IMG/VR virus record: IMGVR_UViG_3300027984_000001
Source: a virus
Length of the DNA: 64,000 bases
Direction: 5' to 3' (one strand)
Shown here: piece after piece, positions 21,860-63,579 of the stretch
Layout of the letters: each line of letters starts with the position of its first letter
Position numbering within the stretch: the first letter of the stretch is position 1
Notes under the pieces: generated by a model
What the model saw: only the letters and a program-made list of their open reading frames with translations
Databases searched by the model: none
Told to the model about the DNA's origin: nothing
Position numbers and translations under genes: made by a program

Positions 21860-22181
21860 TAGTTTCTGACGTTTTTTTGCTTATTTCAATTTCCTGCATA
21901 TCTTTTTGACCCAAAAAATTCTTTCCAAGGAAAATAGCCATTGCCGCGCTACTTTGTGCAAGCTGAAATTGCGACCTCCGTAAGGATATCTTCCCGCTCC
22001 CACGCTTTAATTCGAATATTTCGGAAAAATGTTTCCCGTACGTTCTAATACACCAATTATCAAGAGTTTTGTCTGAACAATCGAAAAAGAATAAAAACTC
22101 CATCAACGTACATTGCAAGCCGCATAAATTTTCAAATTGTTTTTGGTCTATTTCCTTTTTTGGCCTACCTGCTTTAGCCAA
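21801..22181 (-). CDS. terS: terminase small subunit
   Basis: 126 aa. N-terminal HTH (AGRPKKEIDQKQFENLC). Directly upstream of terL. Confidence 0.7.
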   Translation of the reverse strand: MAKAGRPKKEIDQKQFENLCGLQCTLMEFLFFFDCSDKTLDNWCIRTYGKHFSEIFELKRGSGKISLRRSQFQLAQSSAAMAIFLGKNFLGQKDMQEIEISKKTSETIDAVEAYINGNDETNETAD

Positions 22182-23744: not shown

Positions 23745-23761
23745 ATTATATATTTGAATAA

Positions 23762-26995: not shown

Positions 26996-27019
26996 TTCAC
27001 TACCTCTCATTACTTATAA

Positions 27020-29398: not shown

Positions 29399-30433
29399 TT
29401 ATTTTTTTACTTTATACTTCGCGAACAAATCATCTGTTGAGATTTTTTTGACCGGCGGGCGCTCGCTTAGATATTCCACAACCTTTATTTCGGTTTTAGG
29501 CACAATCTTTTTCTGCTCACGCGCCTTTTGTCTCTTTTCGTTTACATCATTGACATATTTGCTCATTTCTGATATTCTGTTTGTTGGGGCGCTTAAACCT
29601 GTTAAAAGGCATAACGTCTGACTAGGATTGTCTGCCGTAAAGGTTATTAACGGCTCCCCCACAATTTCTTTTATCTTATTTACGTCCATTGCGGACGACG
29701 CCGCCAACAAGATGTATTCAATCAGTTGGTCGTTTTCCATTGGCACATACAAACCGCTCTTAACGGCATTAATCAATTTATCAATGGCGCTTTGTTCTTT
29801 TGGCAATCTGGCAATAACGCTATAGCCGGATGCCGATAAAACACGCTTCAAATCAGCGTTGTCTATAACTGCGCCGATATCTTTCAAACCCGGCAATGTC
29901 AATACTGCGTCAAGCTGATTAACAAACTCTGTATTTATCTTTTCTTTATCCCATGCATTATTATCCAAGGCAAATATGGCCGCCAAACCCTCAATGTCAT
30001 TCAATTCATTAATGCATTCAACGGCATTTGCGTGGGCTTGCAACGATTCCTGATACGCGGGGAAAACCACAATCGCGCATATTCTTTTATCTGGATGTGC
30101 CTGTATCAAATTTTCAATCAATAACGGGGATGAGCCTGACCCCGTGCCGCCACCAGCTGAAAACACAACAAAAATGAACTGGGTTGTCAATTTATCGCTT
30201 ATAAAATCATTTATTTTTTCCCATTGCCCAGTTGTCAGGCGCTTGGAAACATTGCGATCGCAACCGCTTCCCTCCGCACCGGTAACATGATACATATACT
30301 TCGTTTTTCCAAGGGTATCAAGACCTCCCAAGCTTGTGTCAATATACATGGCAGTATAACCCGCGTTTTCGAAAAGTCTTGCAATATTCCCCCCGGCTTG
30401 GCCAACCCCCAAAAAGGAAACATCATTCTTCAT
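29399..30433 (-). CDS. tubZ: tubulin/FtsZ-family GTPase (TubZ/PhuZ-like)
   Basis: GVGQAGGN N-terminal motif and the exact tubulin signature GGGTGSG. Basic C-terminal tail. 344 aa. Confidence 0.8.
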   Translation of the reverse strand: MKNDVSFLGVGQAGGNIARLFENAGYTAMYIDTSLGGLDTLGKTKYMYHVTGAEGSGCDRNVSKRLTTGQWEKINDFISDKLTTQFIFVVFSAGGGTGSGSSPLLIENLIQAHPDKRICAIVVFPAYQESLQAHANAVECINELNDIEGLAAIFALDNNAWDKEKINTEFVNQLDAVLTLPGLKDIGAVIDNADLKRVLSASGYSVIARLPKEQSAIDKLINAVKSGLYVPMENDQLIEYILLAASSAMDVNKIKEIVGEPLITFTADNPSQTLCLLTGLSAPTNRISEMSKYVNDVNEKRQKAREQKKIVPKTEIKVVEYLSERPPVKKISTDDLFAKYKVKK

Positions 30434-31833: not shown

Positions 31834-32544
31834 TTATTCTATATCCTCCAATCTTACCTGCAATTTTTCGTTTTCAATTCGCGCCTGTGCCTTTTTGTAA
31901 TAATCCTCATTTATCTCAAATCCACAATATTCATATCCGGCTCGATAACACGCTATTAATAAACTTGCGGAACCTACATGAGTATCTAATATTTTATCGC
32001 CTGTTTTTGCAAATTGATTTAATAACCATGTATATAATTTTATAGGCTTTTGTGTCGCGTGAAATCGCTTTTCCGAATACTTAGAAGTATTCCCACATTC
32101 GCCATACGGAGGGATCCTAACTATTTTCGCATTACGATTAAATGATGTCCATACATATTCACACATAGCCATTGTAAAATTCTCGGGGATATGTTTATCC
32201 CAAACTACAAAACAACGCGTCGGGGGTAATGAAAAATAATTGCCGCCGAATATAATTTGATTCTCACTTACCCGAAACAATTCGTCAAAATACTCCTGAC
32301 CCGGCGCAATATCCCATTCTATAATTGTTTTGCCGTATTTAGCGGCATATCCGCCACCAGTCCTATGGACGCTTATATCTGGTTTATGCTTGTCAAACCG
32401 TTCATCAAAATTCTCCCCATTAGAAAAGTCTTTACCTGCGCCGCCGAACGGCGGATCAATTATTGCTAATTGGAAATACTTATCAGGAAATTGCTTCATC
32501 CCATCCATGCAATCAAAATTATATAAACAATTAAGCTCTAACAT
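31834..32544 (-). CDS. DNA methyltransferase (beta-class N6A/N4C)
   Basis: Motif IV IIDPPFGG, followed by motif I LDTHVGSAS. Confidence 0.8.
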   Translation of the reverse strand: MLELNCLYNFDCMDGMKQFPDKYFQLAIIDPPFGGAGKDFSNGENFDERFDKHKPDISVHRTGGGYAAKYGKTIIEWDIAPGQEYFDELFRVSENQIIFGGNYFSLPPTRCFVVWDKHIPENFTMAMCEYVWTSFNRNAKIVRIPPYGECGNTSKYSEKRFHATQKPIKLYTWLLNQFAKTGDKILDTHVGSASLLIACYRAGYEYCGFEINEDYYKKAQARIENEKLQVRLEDIE

Positions 32545-37959: not shown

Positions 37960-38295
37960 TCCAGTCACTTTCGCCCCCTTTAGTCACTTCGTGGTCACTT
38001 TTTCAAACCCTTATAAATGGCTTAAATACTATATAATATTAATATAAATATATATATGTGACCAATGTGACCAATGTGACCATGTTTCATAGGTATATGA
38101 TGATGTATAAAATCTCGACAACGTAATCGAATATTTGTTTGTCGTCGACGTTGACGTTGAGGTATAAAAGATAGATGGTATATAAGTGTTTTTTGTGGTC
38201 ACTGGTCACAACCCCCGGCAAATAGCATATTTACGCCATTTGCCGGGTGACGGATGAACTAACTTTCGATTTTTTGTTAGTCACATTGTGACTAT
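37960..38295. repeat. iteron-rich AT-rich region, candidate replication origin
   Basis: At least 11 copies of (A/G)GTCAC/GTGAC(C/T). These include 3x GTCACTT (37963-38000), tandem GTGACCAAT x2.9 (38058-38083), TGGTCAC x2 (38196-38209) and palindrome 38278-38294. AT-rich core at 38020-38057. Confidence 0.55.
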
Positions 38296-40857
38296 TCAGT
38301 CATAGTCATCAAATGACTTTTGGCTTAATTTTACGTATTTTGCGTCATTCTTATTGATCCTCAAATGATGCGTGGGCCGGTTTTTTTTATCCGGTATCAT
38401 ATATCCCTTTTTTAACCATTCCTTTTTTATCGCATCCAATGAATACCCGTTTTTCAACATTGCGGCGTCCAGTGTTGAATAGTTTATATAAATACTATTG
38501 TCCTGAACGTCCTTTTTGCCGTAACATTCCCCATTATTATCTTCTAATACCGTCCTGAACCTTGCGTCATTTGCCGCCGCCCAATCCAATACCCATTCAT
38601 AGGCGCGTTCTGACACATCGACATCCTGTTTTGTTCTAAGGAAATCTGAAAAGGTTTTAATGTCTATTATCTGCTCATTGAAAATAAACTTTGCCGCAAT
38701 GCAATCTGCCACGTATACAGCGGCCATGCTTGCCGCTTGCTTCTCTTCTGTGGATTTGAGATATTCTTTTTTGGCATCATCTAAAAGGCTCTTATAATCA
38801 TTATCACGGCGCAACGCGTCAACAAATAGTTTACCTGCATGACCGTAATTATTTTTCAAGAAATCCACGGTTTTTACGCCGTCCTCAATTATCCGCATAT
38901 CCGAAACATCAATCTCAATAACACGGTTCTTTGTTCCGCCGCCGCTATTATTGGCAGTTATTGGATCTTCCCCTGAAAAAATCATACTGTTTCTCCAATG
39001 GTAAACAACATCAACGCTGGAATCTGCGCGTAACCTTCCTCTATCGCTCCCCTCTGTTACCGTCATAATGAATTTATCATACCCATCATAATAATTTTTG
39101 ATTGTCTGTAGTTCATCTCCTATAAAGGGTAAATTTTTTAGGAAAATATTCATTTTTAGCGTATAATTTTGCGTGTTATTCAGGCTCCGTAAATATTTGC
39201 CCATTGAAGGATTTCCCCATATGGACGCCGCAACCATAAGTGTAACCGTCTTTCCCGTTCCTGTTTTGCCGTGGATATGCATAATAAACGGCAGTTGGTT
39301 GAATTGTTCAAGCATAACGCTTGCAAAACTCGCATCAGTAACCGCGCGGACAACTGGATTCTTTCTTAATTCCTTTACAAACTGAATCCATTCTTGCACA
39401 TTACCTTTGCTTTTAATTGAATCAAAAACGTCTTTAAATTCGCCGGTACCATCAAATACAAATTTATTGCAATCATACGGCAAAAATTTGTTATCATGCC
39501 ATCCAATGGATGAAACGCTATCACACACAGGTATAATGTCCTCGTTTAACATCTCTAGGTCGTTTAGATATGCTACTAGCGCCCCGGCATTTTCACTTGT
39601 TACTCCAATACCGTCCAATGGTAGTTTAGTAACAATCTTAGTTTTATTCGCAATAATGGATTTATCATAAATACCAGTTTTCCATTTATTACGACGCTTA
39701 TATTTAATTTCAACCTTTTCCTGCTTTGATTCTTGATTTACTAGGATTCTTGAAATGTAAATCGGATGCCTACATGCATAAATCACTTTGTTTTCCCCCA
39801 CTGTTTTCCATATGCCGGATTCATCTACTGTCCACGCGCCACAATCCAATAATGGCTGATTCTCAAAAATAATTTTATTCCCATTGCTGTCGGGTTGCGT
39901 ATCTTTGAAACGCTCGTCATCCTGCCGTGCAGTTGTGGTTAATGAACTTAAAACGCTTGGAATTGTTCTTGTTTCCAAATAATCCTTGCGCTCGCATTTC
40001 TTTTTATGCGGTTCATCTTTTTGTGTAAAATAAGGACTATTCAAGAACGTATCTTTGATAACATTAATATTACCATTTGCCCAATACGCTAATTTAGAGA
40101 TAAAACCCATATCATCCTGAGATTCATTGCCTATTGGACGTGCGCCATAATAATAATTTTTCAAAATATCGTCTTTTTCAAGGCCAATCTTCACATATTC
40201 GTCGTCTGAAATACTATTCTCAATGCCTTTGCTATAAACATTGCCGGGGCTTTGTGGAAAAGCAATTATGTTTTGCTTAGGCTTTTCTGCTAAATATGCA
40301 TCATAGACCAACTGCAATTCATTTGTTCGTTCATTTACTGGCTTGCGTTCCCCGTAAATATTGCCTGTTATTGTAAAGAATCTACCAGCCTGATAAATTT
40401 CAAGTCCAACTAAATCTTTTCTTTTGTGTTCAAGATTTATATTACCACGGGCAAATATATGCAACCCTTTACCAGACGGCGAAATTTCAGTATAACTATC
40501 AAGTTTATCAACGATATCCTGAGCGAATTTTGAAAAATGCCCATCAATAAAACATTTATCAATGTCAATTCCAATAATATCATTACCGCCGAATGCAAAA
40601 CCAAGGCCATCATACCGCCCAATAACCTTTACAGCTTCTTCAAATGAAACCCATAAAGACGGTGTTGTCTGCCCTCCGGGCCTGCCTGTCTTGACGCTAT
40701 ATGGCTTTTTATCTAATTTTTGCTTTCCCTTATCCACAATCCACACGCCGCGCCATGCGACCCAGCTATTTTGTCGTTTCAATTCATCCGCTATATTGTT
40801 CAGATTCTGCAAATCAAATTTAGGGACTATGTTTGTTGTGGTTAAGACCTCCGTCAT
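38296..40857 (-). CDS. bifunctional primase-polymerase / SF3 helicase (DUF927/VirE-like)
   Basis: N-terminal prim-pol (GIDIDKC, SPSGKGLHIF). Walker A HGKTGTGKT. 853 aa. Confidence 0.8.
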   Translation of the reverse strand: MTEVLTTTNIVPKFDLQNLNNIADELKRQNSWVAWRGVWIVDKGKQKLDKKPYSVKTGRPGGQTTPSLWVSFEEAVKVIGRYDGLGFAFGGNDIIGIDIDKCFIDGHFSKFAQDIVDKLDSYTEISPSGKGLHIFARGNINLEHKRKDLVGLEIYQAGRFFTITGNIYGERKPVNERTNELQLVYDAYLAEKPKQNIIAFPQSPGNVYSKGIENSISDDEYVKIGLEKDDILKNYYYGARPIGNESQDDMGFISKLAYWANGNINVIKDTFLNSPYFTQKDEPHKKKCERKDYLETRTIPSVLSSLTTTARQDDERFKDTQPDSNGNKIIFENQPLLDCGAWTVDESGIWKTVGENKVIYACRHPIYISRILVNQESKQEKVEIKYKRRNKWKTGIYDKSIIANKTKIVTKLPLDGIGVTSENAGALVAYLNDLEMLNEDIIPVCDSVSSIGWHDNKFLPYDCNKFVFDGTGEFKDVFDSIKSKGNVQEWIQFVKELRKNPVVRAVTDASFASVMLEQFNQLPFIMHIHGKTGTGKTVTLMVAASIWGNPSMGKYLRSLNNTQNYTLKMNIFLKNLPFIGDELQTIKNYYDGYDKFIMTVTEGSDRGRLRADSSVDVVYHWRNSMIFSGEDPITANNSGGGTKNRVIEIDVSDMRIIEDGVKTVDFLKNNYGHAGKLFVDALRRDNDYKSLLDDAKKEYLKSTEEKQAASMAAVYVADCIAAKFIFNEQIIDIKTFSDFLRTKQDVDVSERAYEWVLDWAAANDARFRTVLEDNNGECYGKKDVQDNSIYINYSTLDAAMLKNGYSLDAIKKEWLKKGYMIPDKKNRPTHHLRINKNDAKYVKLSQKSFDDYD

Positions 40858-44792: not shown

Positions 44793-45080
44793 TTAATCCC
44801 TCCTATAAATCCATTTTAAGTCGTTCATAATATTTTGAAATAATTGCGTATTTTTATTGTCAAACAATACGTAATAAGGCAATTCATCAATTTCTCTTGC
44901 ACATCTTTCCTTCATTTCGCATAATGCAGTAATGTAATCATTAATCTGTTTATCGTCATAGTCAATTAGTAAATCTAAATCGCTATCAAATGTCTGCTCG
45001 CGCCGCGCAAATGAACCAAAAACCCCTAGCTTTATTATGCTAGGGTGTTTTTTAGCAATGTTAACGATTCTTTCAAACAT
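44793..45080 (-). CDS. mntA: minimal nucleotidyltransferase (MNT) domain protein
   Basis: GVFGSFARRE...DSDLDLLIDY motif. Start at ATG 45080 after a GAAGGAGGG SD. Confidence 0.75.
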   Translation of the reverse strand: MFERIVNIAKKHPSIIKLGVFGSFARREQTFDSDLDLLIDYDDKQINDYITALCEMKERCAREIDELPYYVLFDNKNTQLFQNIMNDLKWIYRRD

Positions 45081-45388
45081 TCGTTTGTTCCCTCCTTCAT
45101 TAACTCTTGACATATAGCCCATACAACCTTAAAATCCACGCCCATATAATTATGACTGGAAACATTCCTTAACCGGCGTAATTGCGGTAACTGGACTGGC
45201 GAATCATCCCGTAAGTTCTTATCACATTCAGTAACATTTGTAATTAATTGGGTAATCGCGTATTTCTCACATAATGAATTTTTAAGTGATTCCCAACTGT
45301 CCATACCGCTCATAATAGACTTAATATCAGCGATATATTTTTGAATTTGGCGGATATTTTGAATATCCGTATGGACTGATTTTATCAT
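45035..45388 (-). CDS. hepT: HEPN (DUF86) domain protein
   Basis: RxxxH motif LRNVSSHNYMGVD. Start at MIKSV after a GGAGGGA SD. Overlaps the MNT gene by 46 nt. Confidence 0.7.
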   Translation of the reverse strand: MIKSVHTDIQNIRQIQKYIADIKSIMSGMDSWESLKNSLCEKYAITQLITNVTECDKNLRDDSPVQLPQLRRLRNVSSHNYMGVDFKVVWAICQELMKEGTNECLKESLTLLKNTLA

Positions 45389-45418
45389 TTTTGTTCCCTC
45401 CATGTTTCTATCTGATAT

Positions 45419-45559: not shown

Positions 45560-45673
45560 ATGGCTTATTTGTTAATCTCAATTAAACTCTTTATACAGCA
45601 TACTAGGCTGTATCCCCTTATTAGCTTGGTATTTACCCATGGAATTATATTCTACATAATCCCCCTCAATTAA
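45560..45673 (+). CDS. possible 37-aa hydrophobic peptide antisense to the dcd 3' end
   Basis: AAGGA SD 9 nt before the ATG. MAYLLISIKLFIQHTRLYPLISLVFTHGIIFYIIPLN. Could equally be a shadow ORF. Confidence 0.25.
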   Translation: MAYLLISIKLFIQHTRLYPLISLVFTHGIIFYIIPLN

Positions 45674-46099
45674 GTGATAATATATCTGACAGATTTCAAC
45701 GTAAGGATATATCCTTATTGGCTGTACACAATGTATTTCTAACGTCCTATATCCCTTAAACCCCACATCCCCGAATCCTGCCGTTATGTGTATAAACAAA
45801 CCTAGTCTGCCTATTGAAGATCTACCCTCTAACATAGGCACTAGACCATTTGTTTCTGTATATTCTAAAGTTCTTCCTAGGTATAATGTTCCGGGAAAAA
45901 GCTCCAATCCTTCGTTAGGTATGGTTATCAATTTTGTTTTATGTTGTTTCTTTATATCTAGTATAGGTTCATCATAGACCATCAACTCATTGTGAAGTTT
46001 TAAATTGTAGCTGTTTGGGTTCAAACAATTTTTGTCAAATGGATCTATCACAATTTGCTTATCCAATCTTTTTTCTATTTCCAACCCAGATAATATCAC
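45578..46099 (-). CDS. dcd: dCTP deaminase
   Basis: MILSGLEI..., NPNSYNL, EGRSSIGRLGLFIH motifs typical of Dcd. GTG start. Confidence 0.8.
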   Translation of the reverse strand: MILSGLEIEKRLDKQIVIDPFDKNCLNPNSYNLKLHNELMVYDEPILDIKKQHKTKLITIPNEGLELFPGTLYLGRTLEYTETNGLVPMLEGRSSIGRLGLFIHITAGFGDVGFKGYRTLEIHCVQPIRIYPYVEICQIYYHLIEGDYVEYNSMGKYQANKGIQPSMLYKEFN

Positions 46100-47541: not shown

Positions 47542-48120
47542 TTAAAACGGGAGGTCATCCTCATAGTCATCAGGTATATTGTTTACATTTTCTGTTGTGG
47601 ATTTGCCGTTAACATTCGTCGGTTTATTTGTCGCCGGTTTATCCTCCGGGACTTTGAACTCACCTGAGCGGATTTTATCCACCGAACGCGGGGCCATTGG
47701 CTTGACATTCCATTTATAGTCACCGCTAGTAGACGCAAAATATTCCGTACGCTGGAATAGCATTCCGATAAGTTTGCCGCGCAACGTTTGTTCATCCCAA
47801 TCCCATGTATAACCGCTATTGCTTTTTTCAATCGACGTTATCAGGCCCTTAAAATATCTTTGCGAATTGCCCTCCGTCATTTGATAATAAACACACGGCC
47901 ATTTTTTAGGCTCAAACGTATTGGCCTTAAATTGTTTGTCGAAAAAGTATTTGTATTCGCCTTCGGCGACATCTAATTCCAGCACTAACATTTCTTTGCC
48001 TGACTGCGAATTGAGGACGTGCGCATTATTAATCACACATACATAACCGCCCGGCGGCAGTTGCTGAAATTCACCCGGCAATGCCGGGGCAATTTTTTCC
48101 CATTCTTGGGGTTTTTTCAT
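47542..48120 (-). CDS. DUF669-type single-strand DNA-binding protein
   Basis: Follows the Sak4-like gene. Acidic C-terminal tail DDYEDDLPF, like SSB tips. Confidence 0.65.
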   Translation of the reverse strand: MKKPQEWEKIAPALPGEFQQLPPGGYVCVINNAHVLNSQSGKEMLVLELDVAEGEYKYFFDKQFKANTFEPKKWPCVYYQMTEGNSQRYFKGLITSIEKSNSGYTWDWDEQTLRGKLIGMLFQRTEYFASTSGDYKWNVKPMAPRSVDKIRSGEFKVPEDKPATNKPTNVNGKSTTENVNNIPDDYEDDLPF

Positions 48121-48208: not shown

Positions 48209-48814
48209 TCAATCTTTTTTTTCAGCAAATCCGTAATAATCCCTTATGGCATCATCAACAAATTTTAAATCGTTTTCAATTTCTAAAGGGAATAATTCCA
48301 TGGGAGATTTGGCCGGTGTCATGCCGTCACTGTTAGTTATAAATTTGTACTGCCCGGCGTCAATTTTCGCTAATAACACGATTGAAAACATACCTTCAAC
48401 CGTTAACTGTTGGTCTAACATTTTGCCTACCGTTTTGGCTTTTAAAACGCCCGTATCGCTGATTTCTGTATGATGGAGAAAATAAACAATTACATCGTCT
48501 GGCAATTTACGGACTTGGTCAATGAGATTCCGAAAGTTGACGGCGATTTCTGTGAATTTGCTATAATTGTTGATGTTCGCCTTATCGAACATTTCGAACG
48601 CCATCAAGAACTGACTGTCATCAATGACATATTTTTTCAGCGTGGGCTTATTCAAACTTTTCTGTATCGTCTGATACGTCGCGTTATTAATGATTTTATT
48701 CATCTTTTTGCGGAATGGCAATGGTTTACCCGCCACGTTGAATATGCCTACTTCATTCGGTTCAAAATTTCTGAGTGAACAACTCTTACCTAACCCGCTG
48801 GAACCTAAAATCAA
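48209..48814 (-). CDS. Sak4-like RecA-fold ATPase (AAA_24); probable true start ATC 48829
   Basis: P-loop GSSGLGKS only 4 residues after the TTG start. ATC lies 8 nt after GGGAGG and adds GIAVL (strand beta1). Confidence 0.7.
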   Translation of the reverse strand: MILGSSGLGKSCSLRNFEPNEVGIFNVAGKPLPFRKKMNKIINNATYQTIQKSLNKPTLKKYVIDDSQFLMAFEMFDKANINNYSKFTEIAVNFRNLIDQVRKLPDDVIVYFLHHTEISDTGVLKAKTVGKMLDQQLTVEGMFSIVLLAKIDAGQYKFITNSDGMTPAKSPMELFPLEIENDLKFVDDAIRDYYGFAEKKD

Positions 48815-49089: not shown

Positions 49090-49581
49090 TTATCTTATCC
49101 TTAATCCCTCAGTTTGATATAGTTCCGCGCCGTCGATAACCTTACCCAATTTAAGATCAGATATTAACCCTTGCTTATCCACACGTGCTGGCGGCTGTAT
49201 CCAATATTCGGCAGGAATGCGTTTTTCATCAACCATAACTGATGGAGGATTTTTCTGCATTGTAAAAGTGAATAATAGTGTTTTTATCTTTTTTAAATCA
49301 AGCGCAATCATTGAGTTTTGCAATGCGACTTTTAGCCGCTCGACGTTATTTTCAATGGACTTACGCCGTCCCTCCAGCCGTTCCTCTTCCGCCTTAATGG
49401 CGTCAATATCGGCATTCAAAGATTTTATCAGCATGGCGTATGCATTGCATTTATCGGCGTAATCTACTTCCGATAGTTTTATTTCCGACATAACTTGAGA
49501 CGCGGCATCATCCGTTTCGCCGTCTGACAATAAATCATACAACCGGCGTAAATTGCCGGTTAAGTTATATAGACTTGCCAT
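49090..49581 (-). CDS. Gp157-family protein
   Basis: MASLYNLTGNLRRLYDLL..., coiled coil. Typical partner upstream of Sak4/SSB. Confidence 0.6.
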   Translation of the reverse strand: MASLYNLTGNLRRLYDLLSDGETDDAASQVMSEIKLSEVDYADKCNAYAMLIKSLNADIDAIKAEEERLEGRRKSIENNVERLKVALQNSMIALDLKKIKTLLFTFTMQKNPPSVMVDEKRIPAEYWIQPPARVDKQGLISDLKLGKVIDGAELYQTEGLRIR

Positions 49582-49582
49582 A

Positions 49583-49786
49583 TTATCCCTCATCTTTCAT
49601 AATTCGCATAGACTCCATTACACAATCATAGCACCAATATTCATCATCGGTTATCGGTAAAAATCTGTCACCATCATAGATATCCCCGCCGCACCTATCG
49701 CATACATATAATGGCGCGTCATCCTCTAAAAAACCATCGCGCTCCATTTGTAAAATCCTGTAATCAGTCATCTTATTCATCCTCAT
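49583..49786 (-). CDS. zinc-ribbon protein
   Basis: CDRCG...CYDC. 67 aa. Confidence 0.5.
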   Translation of the reverse strand: MRMNKMTDYRILQMERDGFLEDDAPLYVCDRCGGDIYDGDRFLPITDDEYWCYDCVMESMRIMKDEG

Positions 49787-53123: not shown

Positions 53124-53160
53124 TGAAAAGCAGAATAATACAAATAATTTTATTCTGCTT
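53124..53160 (-). terminator. intrinsic terminator overlapping the ftsK-like stop
   Basis: 11-bp stem AAGCAGAATAA/TTATTCTGCTT followed by UUUC. Confidence 0.6.
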
Positions 53161-55042
53161 CATCTTCAATGTTATTATTGTATTTTTTTACAATTAGACC
53201 AACAGCCGTCTTGCTTAATCCTGTTTCAGCGGCGATTTGACGTATGGATAATGATTGTTTACGCAATTCCATAACTCTACTGTCCCGACTGTCCTCTTGG
53301 GACGCCGAAAAACTGTCCCGGACGCTGTCCTGAGCACTTGGGACGCTGTCCCGACCGTCCCGTACACTGTCCATGCCATATAGTGGGACGATTTTGGGAC
53401 GCATAAACGGAATAACATTACCAATCTTATCTGCCCATGTATTTTTTGATATTTCAACTTCTAGTTGTTCATAATCATTTTGTTCTATTGGCGGCTCATC
53501 CATCAATGATATCTTATCGGCAATGGCCTTCACACGAAACGCAACCCCACGCCCATCTACAAAATACCCCATGCCGCGAATAAACGATTCATATTTAAAA
53601 TACAATTCTCCACGCCGCATTAAAGCCGCCGCTTGCCGGTTCCCATTGCCTAAAATGACCATTGATTCTTTTTCAGATTCAACCGGTAGGCATACCCGAC
53701 AACGAAAATTGCAAGTTATAGACTTGTCAATAGCGTTACCGTCAGGGCGTTGAGATGCTAAAACTATAAGAATATTAAATCCCCGCGCTATTCGCGCAGA
53801 CTTTACAAGAATATCCTTTATCTCTGGATAATCATCTATCACCGTGTCTATTTCGTCAATAACCAGCAATAGCGGCGTAAATTCCGCTAATGGATCTTTA
53901 GCTCTTACGGCCCGGCGCTCATTTATAATACCTTCAAAAAACACCATATTATCCATAAGCGTATCTTCATTAATGACTACATCTTTTAGTAAATGCGGTA
54001 AATCATTGAATAACCCAAGATCATGTTTTACTACATCTATAATCATCATTTGTAAAGTTTCAGGCGTATTTTTGTATGCCAATCCAAGTATTAAAGAGAA
54101 TAACCATGTAGTTTTACCCATGCCGGTTGAACCCGCAACCAATAGATGATTGTTATTAAATAAATCAACATTTATCGGTTGACCGTTTGTATCCACCCCG
54201 ACAGGGATTAAAAGCGGGTTGTGCATAAAATTTTGGTCATCCAACAATGTATCAAAGTTTATTGCGTTAATCTTTTCTTTTGGCTTGTTAACCAACAATG
54301 TAATAAGCCCATCTTCGTGTTCTCCAAAGTTGACGACGCTTGCATCCTGTTTCAACGCAAGCGCCAGTTCATTCTTTAATCCCATGATTTGGCCTACCTT
54401 ACAACCCGGCCCCGGCTGAATATAATACTTACGTGCCGCGTTACCATCAACAGACTTAACCAGACGGGCATTAATACCCATCTGATCAAATACACCCTGT
54501 ATCGGATGTTGTTTAATAATATTCCTCTCCGTTGATGGACGCGCCATAATTGTATTGACTTGACGGGAATCTGTGGGCCGCTGTCCGCCTGTAGGCCCGC
54601 GCATTGCGTGACCTTTGCGGATGCGGGCGTACGCCGCGACTAATTTCATACGCCCCCGGTAAAAAGGGATTAATACCGCAACCCCAGCAATTATATACAT
54701 ACCAAGTGGGCCAAACCATCCCATAATAATAATACTAATAATATATGGGATTGCGCCAAATAATGCAGATTGCCATACGCTTAATGCCGCGCATACCAGC
54801 AGACCCACCACAAACATAAGTAAATATTTTATCGGATGCCAATACGTAAACTGCATGTACAATCCCCATCCCAAAAATACCACTAGCCCATAGCGGGCAA
54901 TCCCAAAACAATAAACGAATAAAGTATTTAAGTTCGCCCCCGCTGTACCCGTGCCTTTCCCTGTTAGACATCCAACACATCCAATAACCATCAATATAAT
55001 GATTAACCAGCGGAATAGTGGGCTTTCGTTCCTATAACTCAT
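53150..55042 (-). CDS. FtsK/SpoIIIE-family (TraB-like) membrane DNA translocase with C-terminal HTH
   Basis: N-terminal TM helices. Walker A GSTGMGKT and Walker B LLVIDE. C-terminal HTH LSIRQIAAETGLSKTAVG. Confidence 0.85.
   Translation of the reverse strand: MSYRNESPLFRWLIIILMVIGCVGCLTGKGTGTAGANLNTLFVYCFGIARYGLVVFLGWGLYMQFTYWHPIKYLLMFVVGLLVCAALSVWQSALFGAIPYIISIIIMGWFGPLGMYIIAGVAVLIPFYRGRMKLVAAYARIRKGHAMRGPTGGQRPTDSRQVNTIMARPSTERNIIKQHPIQGVFDQMGINARLVKSVDGNAARKYYIQPGPGCKVGQIMGLKNELALALKQDASVVNFGEHEDGLITLLVNKPKEKINAINFDTLLDDQNFMHNPLLIPVGVDTNGQPINVDLFNNNHLLVAGSTGMGKTTWLFSLILGLAYKNTPETLQMMIIDVVKHDLGLFNDLPHLLKDVVINEDTLMDNMVFFEGIINERRAVRAKDPLAEFTPLLLVIDEIDTVIDDYPEIKDILVKSARIARGFNILIVLASQRPDGNAIDKSITCNFRCRVCLPVESEKESMVILGNGNRQAAALMRRGELYFKYESFIRGMGYFVDGRGVAFRVKAIADKISLMDEPPIEQNDYEQLEVEISKNTWADKIGNVIPFMRPKIVPLYGMDSVRDGRDSVPSAQDSVRDSFSASQEDSRDSRVMELRKQSLSIRQIAAETGLSKTAVGLIVKKYNNNIEDEAE
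53280..53401. repeat. array of 12 GGGAC(G/A)/CTGTCC(C) motifs inside the ftsK-like gene
   Basis: 7 direct CTGTCC(C) copies plus 5 inverted GGGACG copies within 122 bp, including GGGAC-GCT-GTCCC palindromes. GC-rich island in an AT-rich gene. Confidence 0.7.
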
Positions 55043-55064: not shown

Positions 55065-55427
55065 TTATGAAAATAACTTTCTGTGGGCATATTCAGATAA
55101 AGTTTCTCCGCAATCCTGAGCACGCATTTTTAATTCTATTTTTTCGTCTGGAGTAAGGCGCATTCTTAAAAAATCTGACGCTGTCTCCCTAACCTTCTCA
55201 AGTCCATAAAATGGATATAAATTTTTAGGCATAGGCGCACCCATAAGTTTACGCGGATGCAAACCAGTATACGGTTTAAAATCTTTTTCTGTTATTACGC
55301 GAAATGGGTCAATGCTAATCGCTACTAGCCTATTCCCTTTATTGCGGGATACCCCCGCAAATTCTAAAATATATTCAGTGGGGAGTGATTTTACTCCCCA
55401 TACATTGACAACCTTCAATTTTCCCAC
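55065..55427 (-). CDS. MobC-like ribbon-helix-helix protein
   Basis: C-terminal MRLTPDEKIELKMRAQDCGETLSEYAHRKLF. GTG start. Confidence 0.55.
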   Translation of the reverse strand: MGKLKVVNVWGVKSLPTEYILEFAGVSRNKGNRLVAISIDPFRVITEKDFKPYTGLHPRKLMGAPMPKNLYPFYGLEKVRETASDFLRMRLTPDEKIELKMRAQDCGETLSEYAHRKLFS

Positions 55428-58001: not shown

Positions 58002-58595
58002 TTACGCGAACATAGATTCCCTAATCTTTTTGACGGCCCTTAGCCTTATTTGACCGACATTAGATTTTGAGCATCCAAGTATAGCGGCGATTTCCTTTTC
58101 GCTCTTATCCTGAACATACATCATATTGATAACGTATTTATATTTTTCGCTTAAACATTCAATGGCCTTTGCTAACAAAATCTTGTCAATCCATTGGTCT
58201 GCGTTCTGTTTCGGATCTTCCGTTGATTCCAGTATGGATTGATACTCTCCAGATTCTGCGCCTATAGTATACTCGCTAACTTCATTCCCCCAGCGTTGTT
58301 CCTTGCGCAAATAAAGGATAATTTCATTTGTAATAAGCCGCGTTGCATAGGTTGAAAAATGGACGCTCTTTTCAAACTTGAACGTATTTATTGCATTTAA
58401 TAAGCCTACATTACCGATTTGAACTAAATCTTCAAAGGTTGCGCTAATGCCGTTATATTCATATTTATGCGCAATCTTAGCAACCAACCTTTGATTGTGT
58501 TCAATGAATAAATCGCGAGCTTTTAAATCGCCCTTTTGCGCTTTATAAAGCAACGCGTTGTTTTCTTCCAATGATAGAACCTCCATGTATTTCAT
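58002..58595 (-). CDS. sigma-70 family RNA polymerase sigma factor (sporulation-sigma-like size)
   Basis: Region 2 (DLVQIGNVGLLNAINTF...YATRLITNEI) and region 4 (EKEIAAILGCSKSNVGQIRLRAVKKIR). Confidence 0.8.
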   Translation of the reverse strand: MKYMEVLSLEENNALLYKAQKGDLKARDLFIEHNQRLVAKIAHKYEYNGISATFEDLVQIGNVGLLNAINTFKFEKSVHFSTYATRLITNEIILYLRKEQRWGNEVSEYTIGAESGEYQSILESTEDPKQNADQWIDKILLAKAIECLSEKYKYVINMMYVQDKSEKEIAAILGCSKSNVGQIRLRAVKKIRESMFA

Positions 58596-58620
58596 GTTTT
58601 CCCCTCCCACGGGATAATAT

Positions 58621-62707: not shown

Positions 62708-62992
62708 GCCTTCATGATAAAACTTGGGGTCTTTATCCTCTTCATATTTCTTTTTTAAACGTTCATATTCTTTTCGCTCTTTATCATCGCCGTCAGATTC
62801 TTTTTCTTTGCCTTCCATTTCTTGTTTTTGGAAATCCTTTAAACCTTTAACATCATCATCATCAAGTAATTCCTGCACCTTTTTCAGTTTGGGCTTGGAT
62901 AGCGTTGATAATCCTATAATAATTGTCCCTAACCCTAAAACTGCTAATGGCTTGATAAGCTTTTCTAACATTTCATCTTGTTCTTTACCCAT
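62702..62992 (-). CDS. small membrane protein with Lys/Glu/Asp-rich tail
   Basis: Start moved to MGKEQ (TAATG overlap, GGAGG SD). Confidence 0.5.
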   Translation of the reverse strand: MGKEQDEMLEKLIKPLAVLGLGTIIIGLSTLSKPKLKKVQELLDDDDVKGLKDFQKQEMEGKEKESDGDDKERKEYERLKKKYEEDKDPKFYHEGN

Positions 62993-63579
62993 TATTTGAC
63001 CTCCAATACTTTCATTCTTTTCCCAACTACATCCCAACAAATAGACTTTATAAAATTCAAAACATACAAATTCTGATTAGCGGGATAATCTATCATATAA
63101 CTATGCTCATAACAATCCATAACTATTAATGGATACATCCCCACAATCAAACCGCTATCATGTGCATCCAGTAGAATATTTTGTAATGCGCAAGTCTTTA
63201 ATTCATATGCCGCTATGCACCATCCACGGGCCGCTTGCCCTGTAGATAAAAAATCATTACACCAATTTTCATAACTTCCAAAACAATCCTGCGCTAGTTT
63301 GACGTATGCCTTATCTGGTTCATGCTTATCACGACAAGCGTTGCGGAAAAATGATTCATGCAATAACACACTACTCAAGTTATAACTTAATTCTTTCTTT
63401 AATCCCCTATAATGTGAGTAATTTTTATTAGCTTTTTCTGGCTTGCTATCCTGAGATAATTCGCTTAATATCTCATTTGCTTTATCAACATATCCTACAT
63501 ATAACTTATAATGAGCCTGAAACGCTCTATCGCTAACGAACGAAACATTATGACTATATGTAATGGCCTTTACCATCAT
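62992..63579 (-). CDS. sod: Fe/Mn superoxide dismutase-like protein
   Basis: Colinear with SodA: AHYKLYVGYV, LLHESFF, GWCIAAY, MDCYEHSYMIDY. All four metal ligands (H, H, D, H) are present. Confidence 0.7.
   Translation of the reverse strand: MMVKAITYSHNVSFVSDRAFQAHYKLYVGYVDKANEILSELSQDSKPEKANKNYSHYRGLKKELSYNLSSVLLHESFFRNACRDKHEPDKAYVKLAQDCFGSYENWCNDFLSTGQAARGWCIAAYELKTCALQNILLDAHDSGLIVGMYPLIVMDCYEHSYMIDYPANQNLYVLNFIKSICWDVVGKRMKVLEVK

What the first reader, a model, noticed from the sequence alone, without database searches (positions are those of the whole stretch)
53280..53401. Dense GGGAC/GTCCC motif array inside the 3' end of an FtsK/TraB-like translocase gene, just before its C-terminal HTH
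**What is seen.** Within 122 bp there are 7 direct CTGTCC(C) copies (at 53280, 53289, 53313, 53325, 53346, 53355 and 53367) and 5 inverted (G/C)GGACG copies (at 53299, 53320, 53340, 53385 and 53396). Some form GGGAC-GCT-GTCCC palindromes. The segment is a GC-rich island in an AT-rich gene. It encodes a low-complexity linker (DSVRDGRDSVPSAQDSVRDS) between the ATPase and an HTH.

**Why it matters.** The combination here is a membrane FtsK-like motor, a C-terminal wHTH, a short repeat array at the 3' end of its own gene, and no relaxase nearby. This recalls Streptomyces TraB with its clt/TRS repeats. A MobC-like RHH gene lies immediately upstream.

**Possible roles.** The array could be a cis site for DNA translocation, transfer or partition of a phage-plasmid.
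Basis: partly seen in the sequence, partly recalled or inferred. Interest (0 to 1): 0.7.

Follow-up and report, generated by a model that had tools for sequence, protein, structure and literature searches.

The report
Docking-site array inside DNA-pump gene
A tailed phage carries a gene for a membrane-anchored FtsK-type DNA pump, and the part of that gene coding for a floppy linker holds a dense cluster of GGGAC(A/G) sites; eleven relatives, mostly next to plasmid-type genes, carry their own versions there, so the array is most likely the pump's own loading site, a design so far described only for Streptomyces TraB/clt conjugation.

Summary
Twelve GGAC(A/G) cores (7 in one orientation, 5 in the other) lie in 53280-53401, and they include 8 of the window's 42 GGGAC/GTCCC pentamers. 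The array sits in the segment of a 630-aa TM + FtsK alpha/beta motor + three-helix HTH protein (53150-55042, minus strand) that codes for a disordered linker.

It is a DNA-level feature, not a by-product of the peptide:
- Synonymous resampling of the same peptide gives 0.9 copies against 12 observed.
- The inverted copies fall in all three reading frames.
- No tandem repeat is detected.

I found an unannotated, metagenome-only family with this architecture. All 12 lineages examined at DNA level carry an array of a lineage-specific 5-6-bp core at the same place. In all 11 non-window loci it is the densest k-mer cluster of the whole locus. The core follows the HTH recognition helix, not the motor phylogeny. 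One pair has about 90% identical motors and a swapped array+HTH cassette. For a held-out member I predicted GAACCG/CGGTTC from the peptide alone, and the DNA confirmed it.

Best reading (0.6): a clt-like loading site for the pump's own HTH. This would be a TraB/clt-type system in a new protein family, embedded in the coding sequence, in loci with plasmid genes and in a probable phage-plasmid. DNA binding has not been tested.

The parts
53280..53401 (.). Array of 12 GGAC(A/G) cores. On the coding strand, 7 read GGAC and 5 read GTCC. Eight copies are full GGGAC/GTCCC. Spacing between cores is 5-17 nt. The array includes GGGAC-AGC-GTCCC and GGAC-AGC-GTCC palindromes and three exact copies of TTGGGACG.
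   Evidence: Synonymous resampling gives a mean of 0.91 and a maximum of 6 in 20000, against 12 observed. The inverted copies lie in all three reading frames. There is no tandem repeat, no significant single-strand fold (z = -1.15) and no Rfam match.
53150..55042 (-). Gene for a 630-aa membrane-anchored FtsK/SpoIIIE-type translocase with a C-terminal HTH (P0001).
   Evidence: ORF. Pfam FtsK_SpoIIIE scores 72.9 bits (cut-off 24) and FtsK_alpha 25.9 bits (cut-off 22.9). It matches PHROG 1358 'FtsK/SpoIIIE-like' at 1e-42. The best PDB sequence match is the FtsK motor at 1e-25. Foldseek's top hits are FtsK motor domains (E = 1.6e-24, target TM-score 0.72-0.77), ahead of TcpA (7e-16).
54617..55021 (-). 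N-terminal hydrophobic helical region (aa 8-142), the predicted membrane anchor.
   Evidence: The AF2 model has helices at 8-26, 33-46, 49-66, 70-88 and 97-142. Kyte-Doolittle 19-aa windows score >= 1.6 between aa 6 and 128.
53501..54505 (-). Alpha + beta motor domains (aa 180-514), including the Walker A motif GSTGMGKT.
   Evidence: (pLDDT 80-94).
53294..53497 (-). Segment coding for the disordered low-complexity linker (aa 516-583). The array lies in its 3' half.
   Evidence: The AF2 model has pLDDT of about 30 over aa 516-583. The linker cannot be aligned between family members.
53177..53302 (-). C-terminal three-helix HTH domain (aa 581-622). Its recognition helix is SKTAVGLIVKKY.
   Evidence: The AF2 model has helices at 581-595, 600-607 and 611-622 with pLDDT 86-88 and no beta wing. 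Weak Pfam hits are HTH_23, HTH_28, Sigma70_r4_2 and HTH_7. The HTH is conserved at the C-terminus of all family members.
55065..55427 (-). Upstream 120-aa gene with a C-terminal ribbon-helix-helix-like motif. It is a possible regulator or accessory protein, and membership in the module is uncertain.
   Evidence: The NikA-like Pfam hit scores 23.3 bits, below the cut-off of 27. The NCBIfam MobA hit scores 20 bits against a cut-off of 80. It is 49% identical and syntenic in the one orthologous phage. It is absent from the members whose operon has two small membrane-protein genes instead.

Best explanation
The array is a cis-acting recognition and loading site for the protein encoded by the same gene.

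**Proposed mechanism.**
- The product is a membrane-anchored hexameric FtsK-type double-stranded-DNA pump.
- Each subunit carries a small three-helix HTH on a disordered tether about 65 residues long.
- Each HTH reads one 5-6-bp GGGAC(A/G) core.
- Twelve cores packed into about 120 bp let several HTHs of one hexamer bind together. A short, weak site thus becomes a specific address by avidity.
- This places the motor on the element's own DNA, and the motor then pumps that DNA across a membrane or a closing septum.
- The site is written into the DNA that codes for the tether, where the protein sequence is nearly unconstrained. Site and reader therefore travel as one cassette.

**What the pumping is for is less certain.** The candidates are cell-to-cell transfer as in Streptomyces TraB/clt, or forced segregation of a plasmid or plasmid-prophage into a daughter cell or forespore. 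The relatives sit next to Rep_3 and ParAB plasmid genes, and the phage encodes TubZ. I therefore favour a plasmid-derived transfer or segregation module borrowed by a phage-plasmid.

**Shown:**
- the array exists and is a DNA-level feature;
- the array is conserved in position across the family;
- the core motif goes with the HTH class.

**Inferred:**
- that the HTH binds the array;
- that the protein forms a hexamer;
- that it pumps DNA, and for what biological purpose.
For: **1. The feature is at DNA level.**
- Resampling synonymous codons for the same peptide, with the phage's own codon usage, gives 0.91 +/- 0.92 GGAC[AG] copies (maximum 6 in 20000). Twelve are observed.
- All 7 Asp codons in the array are GAC. 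The window's ORFs use GAC for 22% of Asp codons, and the rest of this gene uses it for 5 of 30.
- The four strict inverted copies occupy all three reading frames.
- There is no tandem repeat.

**2. The only close orthologue keeps the array but not the peptide.**
- P0002 is 41% identical. It has 13 GGAC[AG] copies at the same place, against 1.8 expected, in all three frames. Its linker peptide is different (QDGQTDSRTDGRTDS).

**3. The array is a family trait.**
- A profile search of 1.84 billion representatives found proteins of about 620-690 aa with the same TM + motor + linker + HTH plan.
- All 12 lineages whose DNA I could read carry an array of a lineage-specific 5-6-bp core 130-450 nt before the stop codon.
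- The cores are GGGAC[AG], CGGAC[AG], GGGAAC, GGAAAC, CGAACG, CGATAC, TGATAC, CGATGC and GAACCG.
- Arrays hold 5-16 copies, against 0-0.6 expected from the rest of each locus.
- Copies usually fall in several reading frames, and in 7 of the 12 lineages in both orientations.

**4. An unbiased scan finds the same place.**
- With no prior motif, the densest 5-mer cluster of the whole locus falls in this gene segment in all 11 non-window loci.
- Sixteen control loci with other FtsK-like genes show no cluster of that size at such a position.

**5.
- Recognition helices with V-Q-R go with GAT[AG]C in three separate motor clades.
- Helices with V-[GA]-x go with GGAC[AG] in three clades.
- Motors that are 69% and 65% identical (L027/L031 and L025/L029) carry different cores and different helices.
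- P0302 and P0130 are about 90% identical up to '...FDLFIP'. After that point both linker and HTH are unrelated, and the cores are GAACCG and CGGAC.

**6. A held-out prediction held.**
- The P0302 peptide has 'RF' repeats and 'EP' repeats. From this alone I predicted one DNA motif, GAACCG, and its reverse complement, CGGTTC.
- The DNA has 6 + 9 copies in about 300 nt. That is 15 of the 26 copies in a 15.6-kb locus.

**7. The HTH is the only constant partner.**
- The upstream genes differ between members. Two phage members have an RHH gene, and five other members have two small membrane-protein genes.

**8. The motor looks like a dsDNA pump.**
- An alpha domain is present, and the best structural matches are FtsK motors bound to dsDNA.

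**9. There is a precedent.**
- Streptomyces Tra/TraB proteins bind clusters of 5-9-bp direct or inverted repeats (clt). In TraB of pSVH1 this is done by the C-terminal DNA-binding domain.
- In pWTY27 the clt overlaps the 3' end of traA (PMC3583192, PMC4447253, PMC4170104).
Against: - No binding, translocation or transfer has been tested. Every functional step is inferred.
- The array and the HTH lie within 300 bp of each other. Their joint inheritance could therefore reflect physical linkage alone.
- Disordered linkers tolerate slippage. In several members (L001, L029, L028) many copies are head-to-tail runs with a period of 4 or 5 nt, which slippage could maintain without function.
- The match between recognition helix and core is imperfect. 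I predicted GGGAAC for P0138 from its HYVHD helix, and it has GGGACA. The window's different helix reads almost the same core.
- I chose the cores after seeing the data. The unbiased scan only partly removes that bias.
- The mixed orientation of copies gives no translocation polarity, unlike KOPS or SRS.
- All family members are single metagenomic contigs of unknown host. None could be shown to be a complete circular replicon, so the absence of a relaxase or a T4SS is not established.
Confidence: 0.6

Rival explanations
1. The array is a neutral by-product of a low-complexity linker. Replication slippage and duplication in a disordered, unconstrained segment produce lineage-specific DNA repeats with no DNA-level function. 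Alternatively, the peptide (D/S/R-rich) is what selection acts on.
For: - The segment encodes a disordered linker.
- Every lineage has its own motif, as random expansions would give.
- L001, L029 and L028 contain true head-to-tail runs such as (GGAC)4-5 and (GATGC)4.
- In L030, L027 and L032 the copies are all direct and mostly in one frame. L032 does not exceed the synonymous-resampling maximum.
Against: - In the window the copies are dispersed, not tandem.
- Five of the window's 12 copies are inverted, and the strict inverted copies lie in three frames. Slippage cannot make inverted copies.
- Codon choice is far from neutral for the peptide.
- The same core persists across lineages whose HTHs are only 24-61% identical and whose linker peptides cannot be aligned.
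- The 'RF' and 'EP' peptide repeats of P0302 are reverse complements of one DNA motif.
- The array is the densest k-mer cluster of the whole locus in 11 of 11 non-window loci.
Confidence: 0.15
2. The array is bound by a different protein and has a regulatory role. Candidates are the upstream RHH protein or an XRE-type repressor. It could serve as an intragenic operator or roadblock that limits expression of a toxic pump, by analogy with kil-kor control of traB.
For: - An RHH gene lies directly upstream in both phage members. RHH proteins typically bind arrays of short repeats (general knowledge).
- XRE-type HTH genes lie upstream of the gene in most of the non-phage loci.
- traB expression is toxic and is repressor-controlled in Streptomyces (PMC4447253).
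Against: - The RHH gene is absent from the members whose operon has two small membrane-protein genes, yet these still have arrays.
- The arrays sit 1.6 kb inside the gene, not at a promoter.
- The core motif follows the in-gene HTH recognition helix.
- The XRE comparison between L029 and L034 was uninformative, because the two proteins are only 37% identical.
Confidence: 0.12
3. The array is a replication origin. It would consist of iterons embedded in a gene, as in lambda O/ori or SPP1 gene 38/oriL, with the AT-rich region downstream of the gene acting as the unwinding element.
For: - Short repeats in both orientations lie inside a linker-coding segment, and AT-rich DNA follows within about 150 bp.
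- The gene lies just upstream of the recombination and replication module of Gp157, Sak4, SSB and primase-helicase.
Against: - A much more typical origin candidate lies in non-coding DNA directly after the primase-helicase gene, at 37960-38300. It has about 8 GTCAC/GTGAC copies, three tandem TGGTCACAT units and a long A+T run.
- In two related loci (L026, L031) a Rep_3 initiator gene is present, which normally has its own iterons next to rep. The array nevertheless stays with the FtsK-HTH gene.
- An FtsK-type pump is not a known initiator.
Confidence: 0.05
4. The array is a packaging (pac) site or another terminase target. Alternatively, the protein is a conventional type IV coupling protein working with a relaxosome at an oriT.
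For: - The motor shows detectable fold similarity to the pCW3 coupling protein TcpA (E = 7e-16).
- There is an RHH with a faint NikA/MobA-like signal.
- Pac sites often lie inside genes (general knowledge).
Against: - TerS and TerL lie 31 kb away, at 20546-22181. The non-phage members examined show no terminase gene.
- No relaxase was seen in the window or in any related locus.
- FtsK motors match better than TcpA, and an alpha domain is present.
- Arrays of 5-6-bp cores do not resemble nic sites.
Confidence: 0.04

Closest known systems
Streptomyces TraB (or TraA/Tra) with its clt locus (pSVH1, pIJ101, pJV1, pWTY27 and AICEs)
   Same: - It is a membrane-anchored FtsK-like hexameric pump with a C-terminal DNA-binding domain.
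- That domain recognises a local cluster of short (5-9 bp) direct or inverted repeats on its own replicon.
- The clt lies at or next to the 3' end of the tra gene. In pWTY27, 16 bp of it lie inside traA.
- The motif differs from plasmid to plasmid, and no relaxase is needed (PMC3583192, PMC4447253, PMC4170104, PMC12857230).
   Different: - The DNA-binding domain here is a plain three-helix HTH, not the gamma-like winged helix.
- The whole array lies inside the coding sequence, in the linker-coding DNA.
- Sequence similarity to a Streptomyces plasmid protein is only generic (23.9% identity, E = 4e-6).
- The elements have low to medium GC (35-60%). They include two tailed phages and contigs with Rep_3 and ParAB plasmid genes.
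- There are no spd genes. Some members instead have two unrelated small membrane proteins.
FtsK/KOPS and SpoIIIE/SRS chromosome translocases
   Same: - The alpha/beta motor fold is the best structural and sequence match.
- There is an N-terminal membrane anchor and a long linker.
- A C-terminal DNA-reading domain directs loading on specific short sequences.
   Different: - There is no gamma domain; PF09397 is absent, whereas nearly all cellular hits have it.
- The recognition sequence is not dispersed, polar or over-represented across the genome. GGGACAG occurs 4 times outside the array against 2.8 expected for the whole window, and there is no second cluster.
- The sites form a single local array in both orientations.
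Origins embedded in their initiator genes (lambda O/ori-lambda, SPP1 G38P/oriL)
   Same: A cluster of protein-binding repeats is written into the linker-coding part of the gene whose product binds them. Site and reader are therefore inherited as one unit (general knowledge).
   Different: The protein here is a membrane-anchored FtsK pump, not an initiator. A separate and more typical origin candidate exists at 37960-38300.
FtsK-like type IV coupling proteins of Gram-positive conjugative elements (TcpA of pCW3, Orf21 of Tn916)
   Same: These are membrane-anchored FtsK-superfamily ATPases on mobile elements of low-GC bacteria. TcpA is the second-best class of structural match.
   Different: Those proteins work with a relaxase, an oriT and a T4SS, and lack a C-terminal HTH (general knowledge). 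No relaxase was found here, FtsK is the better match, and the intragenic array has no counterpart.

Membership tests
FtsK/SpoIIIE dsDNA translocase superfamily | P-loop beta (RecA-like) FtsK_SpoIIIE domain | tested here: met
   PF01580 scores 72.9 bits against a cut-off of 24. PDB FtsK motors match at 1e-25. Foldseek gives E = 1.6e-24 and target TM-score 0.72-0.77.
FtsK/SpoIIIE dsDNA translocase superfamily | Alpha domain preceding the beta domain | tested here: met
   PF17854 FtsK_alpha scores 25.9 bits against a cut-off of 22.9, over aa 171-233.
FtsK/SpoIIIE dsDNA translocase superfamily | N-terminal transmembrane anchor | tested here: met
   Hydrophobic helices span aa 8-142 in the AF2 model, and hydropathy windows score >= 1.6. 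The Pfam FtsK_4TM model itself did not hit.
FtsK/SpoIIIE dsDNA translocase superfamily | C-terminal gamma winged-helix domain (PF09397) | tested here: not met
   There is no PF09397 hit. The C-terminus is a three-helix bundle without a wing.
FtsK/SpoIIIE dsDNA translocase superfamily | Dispersed, strand-polar, over-represented recognition octamers (KOPS/SRS) | tested here: not met
   The motif is not enriched outside the array and shows no polarity beyond the base skew.
Streptomyces TraB/clt single-protein dsDNA conjugation | FtsK-like membrane pump encoded on the mobile element | tested here: met
   The relatives lie on contigs with Rep_3 and ParAB plasmid genes.
Streptomyces TraB/clt single-protein dsDNA conjugation | clt: a local cluster of short direct or inverted repeats at or near the 3' end of the tra gene | tested here: met
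   There are 12 cores in 53280-53401, which is 130-250 nt before the stop codon. Equivalent arrays occur in all 12 lineages.
Streptomyces TraB/clt single-protein dsDNA conjugation | C-terminal winged HTH whose helix alpha-3 reads the repeats | tested here: not met
   An HTH is present, but it is a plain three-helix HTH_23/28-like fold. The core motif does follow the recognition-helix class. Binding itself cannot be tested with these tools.
Streptomyces TraB/clt single-protein dsDNA conjugation | Specific binding of the protein to the repeats, and transfer that depends on clt | not testable with these tools
   This needs EMSA or ChIP and mating assays.
Streptomyces TraB/clt single-protein dsDNA conjugation | No relaxase or T4SS on the element | tested here: inconclusive
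   None was found in the window or in 12 loci. However, many ORFs have no hit and no contig could be shown to be complete.
Streptomyces TraB/clt single-protein dsDNA conjugation | Close sequence relationship to actinomycete TraB proteins | tested here: not met
   The best Streptomyces plasmid hit has 23.9% identity and E = 4e-6, which is weaker than cellular FtsK.
Relaxosome / type IV coupling protein module (MobC or NikA RHH + relaxase + T4CP) | Relaxase gene and an RHH accessory protein that reach family thresholds | tested here: not met
   The NikA-like hit scores 23.3 bits, below the cut-off of 27. MobA scores 20 bits against a cut-off of 80. No relaxase was found.
Known anti-phage defence systems (PADLOC) | Full-length match to a defence-system component | tested here: not met
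   There are only partial hits of the generic FtsK/HerA domain to SspH, mad8 and HerA models.

The most novel reading that the evidence does not exclude
A tailed phage, probably a TubZ-partitioned phage-plasmid, carries a self-contained 'pump plus address label' module. With it the phage could move its double-stranded genome directly into a neighbouring cell, a daughter cell or a forespore without making virions.

More generally, low-to-medium-GC mobile elements would possess a previously unrecognised TraB-like single-protein dsDNA transfer system. Its specificity would be set by a swappable cassette in which the binding-site array is translated as the tether of the domain that reads it.
Probability: 0.2. 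Interest if true: 0.9.

Novelty: new variant of a known kind. Interest (0 to 1): 0.72.

Why it matters
- **Range of the principle.** A December 2025 review describes transfer of unprocessed double-stranded DNA by one FtsK-like protein and a clt site only for Streptomyces and other actinomycete elements (PMC12857230). A second, unrelated-looking family built on the same principle would widen the known range of this route of horizontal gene transfer or segregation. This family has a different DNA-binding fold and occurs in low-to-medium-GC contigs with plasmid genes and in tailed phages.
- **Overlapping codes.** The DNA that codes for a disordered tether is at the same time the binding-site array for the domain hanging on that tether. 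This explains otherwise odd peptide repeats: in one member, 'RF' and 'EP' repeats are the two strands of one motif.
- **A directly testable specificity code.** The array and the HTH are exchanged together as a cassette between motors that are about 90% identical. That offers a natural specificity code (recognition helix against 5-6-bp core) that can be tested with a handful of EMSAs.
- **Annotation.** Such arrays could mark the cis sites of many 'FtsK/SpoIIIE-like' genes in phages and plasmids. These genes are at present filed as morons of unknown role.

Tried and rejected
**Searches that found nothing useful.**
- DNA similarity to known phages: none.
- tblastn against PLSDB and INPHARED with three family members: only generic motor-domain hits and no full-length relative.
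- The search for related loci in viral, metagenome and genome collections: only the one orthologous lineage or unrelated FtsK genes.
- Re-searching the word-indexed protein database with the family profile: cellular FtsK only.
- Paper search for the sample accession numbers: nothing. The habitat and host are therefore not established. My recollection that these JGI samples are termite-gut metagenomes is unverified.

**Readings tested and rejected.**
- Structured RNA or single-stranded DNA element: the fold z-score is -1.15 and there is no Rfam hit.
- KOPS-like genome-wide signal: no enrichment outside the array.
- Packaging motor or pac site: TerS and TerL lie elsewhere.
- RHH protein as the array's partner: it is not conserved in the family.
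- Defence system: only generic domain hits.

**Tests that were partial or uninformative.**
- My first covariation prediction was only partly right. For P0138 (HYVHD helix) I expected GGGAAC and found GGGACA. The P0129 prediction (GAT[AG]C) and the P0302 prediction (GAACCG/CGGTTC) were right.
- Circularity test of the smaller related contigs: no terminal overlaps.
- Comparison of XRE repressors between the cassette-swapped pair: uninformative, because they are only 37% identical.
Full report
**1. The observation.**
- Positions 53280-53401 hold 12 GGAC/GTCC cores.
- On the + strand, CTGTCC occurs at 53280, 53289, 53313, 53325, 53346 and 53367. The variant CCGTCC occurs at 53355. (G/C)GGACG starts at 53299, 53319, 53340, 53385 and 53396.
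- Eight of the window's 42 GGGAC/GTCCC pentamers lie here. The expectation for a 130-nt window is 0.085, so P is about 4e-9 after scanning the window. Block shuffles never exceed 4.
- The only two GGGAC-N(1-12)-GTCCC pairs of the window are here.
- GC is 60% against 42% for the gene.
- Tandem Repeats Finder sees no tandem array. The single strand does not fold better than shuffles (z = -1.15). Rfam has no match.

**2. The gene.**
- The array lies in ORF 53150-55042 on the minus strand, which encodes 630 aa.
- Pfam finds FtsK_SpoIIIE (72.9 bits) and FtsK_alpha (25.9 bits), both above their cut-offs. It does not find the FtsK gamma domain.
- The AF2 model (mean pLDDT 74.7) shows these parts:
  - hydrophobic helices at aa 8-142;
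  - a disordered stretch at 144-177;
  - a confident alpha/beta motor at 180-514;
  - a disordered linker at 516-583 (pLDDT about 30);
  - a confident three-helix bundle at 581-622 with no wing.
- Pfam sees the C-terminal bundle weakly as HTH_23, HTH_28 or Sigma70_r4_2.
- The best solved relatives are FtsK motors, including the dsDNA-bound forms. Their sequence E-value is 1e-25, the Foldseek E-value is 1.6e-24, and the target TM-score is 0.72-0.77. They rank ahead of the coupling protein TcpA (7e-16) and of EssC/EccC.
- The array therefore occupies the DNA that codes for the 3' half of the disordered tether, plus the first residues of the HTH domain.

**3. The genomic setting.**
- All genes of the window are on the minus strand.
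- The window is a tailed-phage genome. It corresponds to a 67.8-kb contig.
- Identified genes:

| Gene | Coordinates |
|---|---|
| TerS and TerL | 20546-22181 |
| Endolysin | 25811-27010 |
| Primase-helicase | 38296-40857 |
| SSB-like protein | 47542-48120 |
| Sak4 | 48209-48814 |
| Gp157 | 49090-49593 |
| Sigma factor | 58002-58610 |

- The FtsK-like protein is therefore not the packaging motor.
- A TubZ-type GTPase lies at 29399-30433. Pfam Tubulin scores 5e-16 and TubZ_C_3 scores 1e-11. No integrase was found among the ORFs scanned. A plasmid-prophage lifestyle is therefore plausible.
- The 120-aa gene directly upstream (55065-55427) has only a sub-threshold NikA-like RHH signal.

**4. DNA motif or peptide repeat?** I resampled synonymous codons for the exact linker peptide, using the codon usage of 50 ORFs of the window.
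- The result was 0.91 +/- 0.92 GGAC[AG] copies, with a maximum of 6 in 20000 trials. Twelve are observed.
- All 7 Asp codons in the array are GAC. Across the window's ORFs GAC makes up 22% of Asp codons, and in the rest of this gene it is 5 of 30.
- The direct copies all read xGG-GAC-AGx. The inverted copies (CGTCCCAA three times and CGTCCCAC once on the coding strand) encode R-P-K, V-P-L, V-P-S and A-S-Q, so they lie in three different frames.
- Slippage cannot make inverted copies.

**5. The orthologue.**
- Only one close relative exists, P0002 (41% identity). It lies in a second phage with the same local gene order, including the RHH gene at 49% identity.
- Its linker peptide is different (QDGQTDSRTDGRTDS).
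- Its DNA nevertheless holds 13 GGAC[AG] copies at the same place, against 1.8 expected from the peptide. The copies lie in all three frames, and there is one inverted pair, CCGGAC-N8-GTCCGG.

**6. A family.**
- A profile search of 1.84 billion representative proteins, followed by one further homology search, found 13 more proteins of about 620-690 aa, or fragments of them. All have the plan TM + motor + unalignable low-complexity linker + C-terminal HTH.
- All are metagenome-only singletons without names. None occurs in PLSDB or INPHARED.
- I could read the DNA of ten of them. With the two phages this makes 12 lineages.
- Two loci carry Rep_3 initiator genes, and one of these also carries ParA and ParB.
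- One gene lies next to a lysozyme-like/C39-peptidase gene.
- No relaxase was seen in any locus.
- Five members have two conserved small membrane-protein genes directly upstream in place of the RHH gene.

**7. Every member has an array.** In all 12 lineages the DNA 130-450 nt before the stop codon holds 5-16 copies of a lineage-specific core. The rest of each locus predicts 0-0.6 copies for a stretch of that length.

| Locus (protein) | Core | Orientation (+/-) |
|---|---|---|
| window (P0001) | GGGAC[AG] | +4/-4 |
| L001 (P0002) | CGGAC[AG] | +9/-1 |
| L026 (P0121) | CGGAC[AG] | +9/-1 |
| L029 (P0130) | CGGAC[AG] | +16/0 |
| L030 (P0138) | GGGACA | +6/0 |
| L027 (P0125) | GGGAAC | +5/0 |
| L032 (P0150) | GGAAAC | +8/0 |
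| L033 (P0128) | CGAACG, often as GAACGTTC | +6/-2 |
| L025 (P0126) | CGATAC | +9/-2 |
| L031 (P0129) | TGATAC | +5/-5 |
| L028 (P0143) | CGATGC | +7/0 |
| L034 (P0302) | GAACCG | +6/-9 |

- In 10 of the 11 lineages tested this way, the copy number exceeds every one of 5000 synonymous resamplings. L032 ties with the maximum. L034 was not put through this test.
- Copies usually occupy two or three reading frames.
- I chose the cores after seeing the data, so I also ran an unbiased scan for the densest 5-mer cluster in each whole locus. In all 11 non-window loci the top cluster is this array. In the 64-kb window it ties for first place. Sixteen control loci with other FtsK-like genes show nothing comparable at such a position.

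**8. The core follows the HTH, not the motor.**
- Motor-domain identities do not predict the core. L027 and L031 are 69% identical but carry GGGAAC and TGATAC. L025 and L029 are 65% identical but carry CGATAC and CGGAC.
- The residues that follow the conserved Val of the recognition helix do predict it:

| Residues after the Val | Core | Lineages |
|---|---|---|
| V-Q-R | GAT[AG]C | three, from three motor clades; HTH identity 24-39% |
| V-[GA]-[LED] | GGAC[AG] | four, from three clades |
| V-H-D | GGGA[AC][AC] | two |
| V-F-T | GGAAAC | one |
| V-Y-N | CGAACG | one |
| V-H-R | GAACCG | one |

- The cleanest case is P0302 against P0130, both from the same sample. They are about 90% identical up to '...FDLFIP'. 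After that the linker and the HTH are unrelated, and the cores are GAACCG and CGGAC. The array and the HTH were exchanged together as one cassette.
- Caveat: the two parts are adjacent, so linkage alone can carry them together. What linkage does not explain is that the core survives while the surrounding linker becomes unalignable and the HTH diverges to about 30% identity.

**9. Predictions.**
- For P0129 (V-Q-R) I predicted a GAT[AG]C core. The DNA has TGATAC ten times.
- For P0138 (HYVHD) I predicted GGGAAC. The DNA has GGGACA, which is close but not the same.
- For P0302 I predicted the motif from the peptide alone. Its 'RF' repeats (CGG TTC) and 'EP' repeats (GAA CCG) should be the two strands of one motif. 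The DNA has 9 CGGTTC and 6 GAACCG copies in about 300 nt, arranged in blocks. That is 15 of the 26 copies in the 15.6-kb locus, and it is the densest cluster of the locus.
- No peptide-level explanation accounts for two peptide repeats that are reverse complements of each other.

**10. Mechanism proposed.**
- By analogy with FtsK/KOPS and TraB/clt, the HTHs of the hexamer bind several cores at once. Each HTH sits on a tether of about 65 residues and reads 5-6 bp.
- Twelve cores spaced 5-17 nt apart give avidity and specificity, and load the motor on the element's own DNA.
- The mixed orientation of the cores means there is no polarity. Polarity is not needed for a circular replicon.
- Placing the site in the tether-coding DNA costs little at protein level and ties the site to its reader.
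- These steps are inferred. The shown facts are the DNA-level nature of the array, its conservation across the family, and its association with the HTH class.
- The purpose of pumping is the least certain part. It could be cell-to-cell transfer, or segregation into a daughter cell or forespore.

**11. Rival readings.**
- Neutral slippage or peptide selection (0.15). Some members have head-to-tail runs of period 4 or 5. The points in sections 4-9 argue against this reading.
- Binding by another protein with a regulatory role (0.12). The RHH gene is not conserved, and the position is 1.6 kb inside the gene.
- Replication origin (0.05). A classical origin-like region lies in non-coding DNA right after the primase-helicase gene, at 37960-38300. 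It has about 8 GTCAC/GTGAC copies, three tandem TGGTCACAT units and a long A+T run.
- Pac site, or oriT with a coupling protein (0.04). The terminase genes lie elsewhere, no relaxase was found, and FtsK matches better than TcpA.

**12. Comparison with what is known.**
- Streptomyces clt loci are clusters of 5-9-bp direct or inverted repeats. They are specific to each plasmid and are bound by the plasmid's Tra protein. In TraB of pSVH1 the C-terminal winged HTH does this. In pWTY27 the clt overlaps the 3' end of traA (PMC3583192, PMC4447253, PMC4170104).
- A December 2025 review describes this mode of transfer only for Streptomyces and other actinomycete elements (PMC12857230).
- The present family works like TraB/clt in outline, but it is not a member of that family:
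  - it has a different DNA-binding fold;
  - it shows only generic sequence similarity;
  - its site is fully intragenic;
  - it occurs in low-to-medium-GC elements that include tailed phages.
- No NCBIfam, PHROG or PADLOC model describes it beyond 'FtsK/SpoIIIE-like'.

**13. Verdict.**
The HTH is plain, not winged. The RHH protein is neither a firm MobC nor a conserved partner of the array.
- Novelty: a new variant of a known kind.
- Confidence that the array is the pump's own recognition site is 0.6.
- Interest is 0.72.

Noticed in passing
window 37960-38300: Non-coding region directly after the primase-helicase gene. It has about 8 GTCAC/GTGAC copies of the window's 39, a palindrome TAGTCACAATGTGACTA, three tandem TGGTCACAT units and then a run of about 50 nt of A+T. 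It looks like the phage replication origin.
   Followed up: partly
window 29399-30433 (-): TubZ-type tubulin GTPase. Pfam Tubulin scores 5e-16 and TubZ_C_3 scores 1e-11, and it also matches the PHROG 'tubulin PhuZ'. In a 68-kb siphovirus-like genome with no integrase seen, this suggests a plasmid-prophage with type III partition. I did not look for tubR or tubC.
   Followed up: partly
window 22190-23041 (-) and 45578-46099 (-): A beta-glucosyl-HMC-alpha-glucosyltransferase-like protein (PHROG 842, 1e-67) and a dCTP deaminase (PHROG 1663, 7e-42). The phage DNA may carry a hypermodified, glycosylated base.
   Followed up: no
window 23028-25051 (-): Two adjacent genes with ParB-like nuclease N-terminal domains, one of them fused to a DNA methyltransferase. 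They lie just upstream of TerS. A further methyltransferase lies at 31834-32544.
   Followed up: no
window 44793-45403 (-): A HepT-like/MNT (nucleotidyltransferase) toxin-antitoxin pair inside the phage early region. The same kind of pair occurs next to the family member on the L026 contig (HEPN/NTP_transf_2) and in L002.
   Followed up: no
window 62992-63579 (-): A 195-aa product with a precomputed Pfam Sod_Fe_C (iron/manganese superoxide dismutase C-terminal) hit, near the start of the early region. It has no PHROG match.
   Followed up: no
L029 6001-7350 and L034 10001-12067: Two family members from the same sample have motors that are about 90% identical. Their linker-array + HTH cassettes are unrelated, and the breakpoint lies exactly at the start of the linker ('...FDLFIP').
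   Followed up: yes
L025 2224-2636, L026 3643-4025, L027 3600-4057, L031 4779-5148, L032 3586-3970: Five non-phage family members have two conserved small membrane-protein genes directly upstream, with stop and start codons overlapping. One product is about 53 aa. The other is 71-97 aa and ends in CPxCG. They have no Pfam hit and may be partners of the pump.
   Followed up: partly
L026 6447-6461: Three further CGGAC copies lie about 470 nt downstream of the family gene's stop codon, inside a 62-aa ORF with weak HTH_38/HTH_23 hits. This may be a second small site or a remnant of a cassette.
   Followed up: no
window 53128-53160: A perfect 11-bp inverted repeat (AAGCAGAATAA / TTATTCTGCTT, 11-nt loop) spans the stop codon of the FtsK-like gene. 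It is AT-rich and the terminator scan did not call it.
   Followed up: no
L001, L029, L028 linker arrays: Head-to-tail runs with a period that is not a multiple of three lie inside the coding sequence, namely (GGAC)4-5 and (GATGC)4. A slip of one unit would shift the frame and remove the HTH, so phase-variable loss of the DNA-reading domain is conceivable.
   Followed up: no
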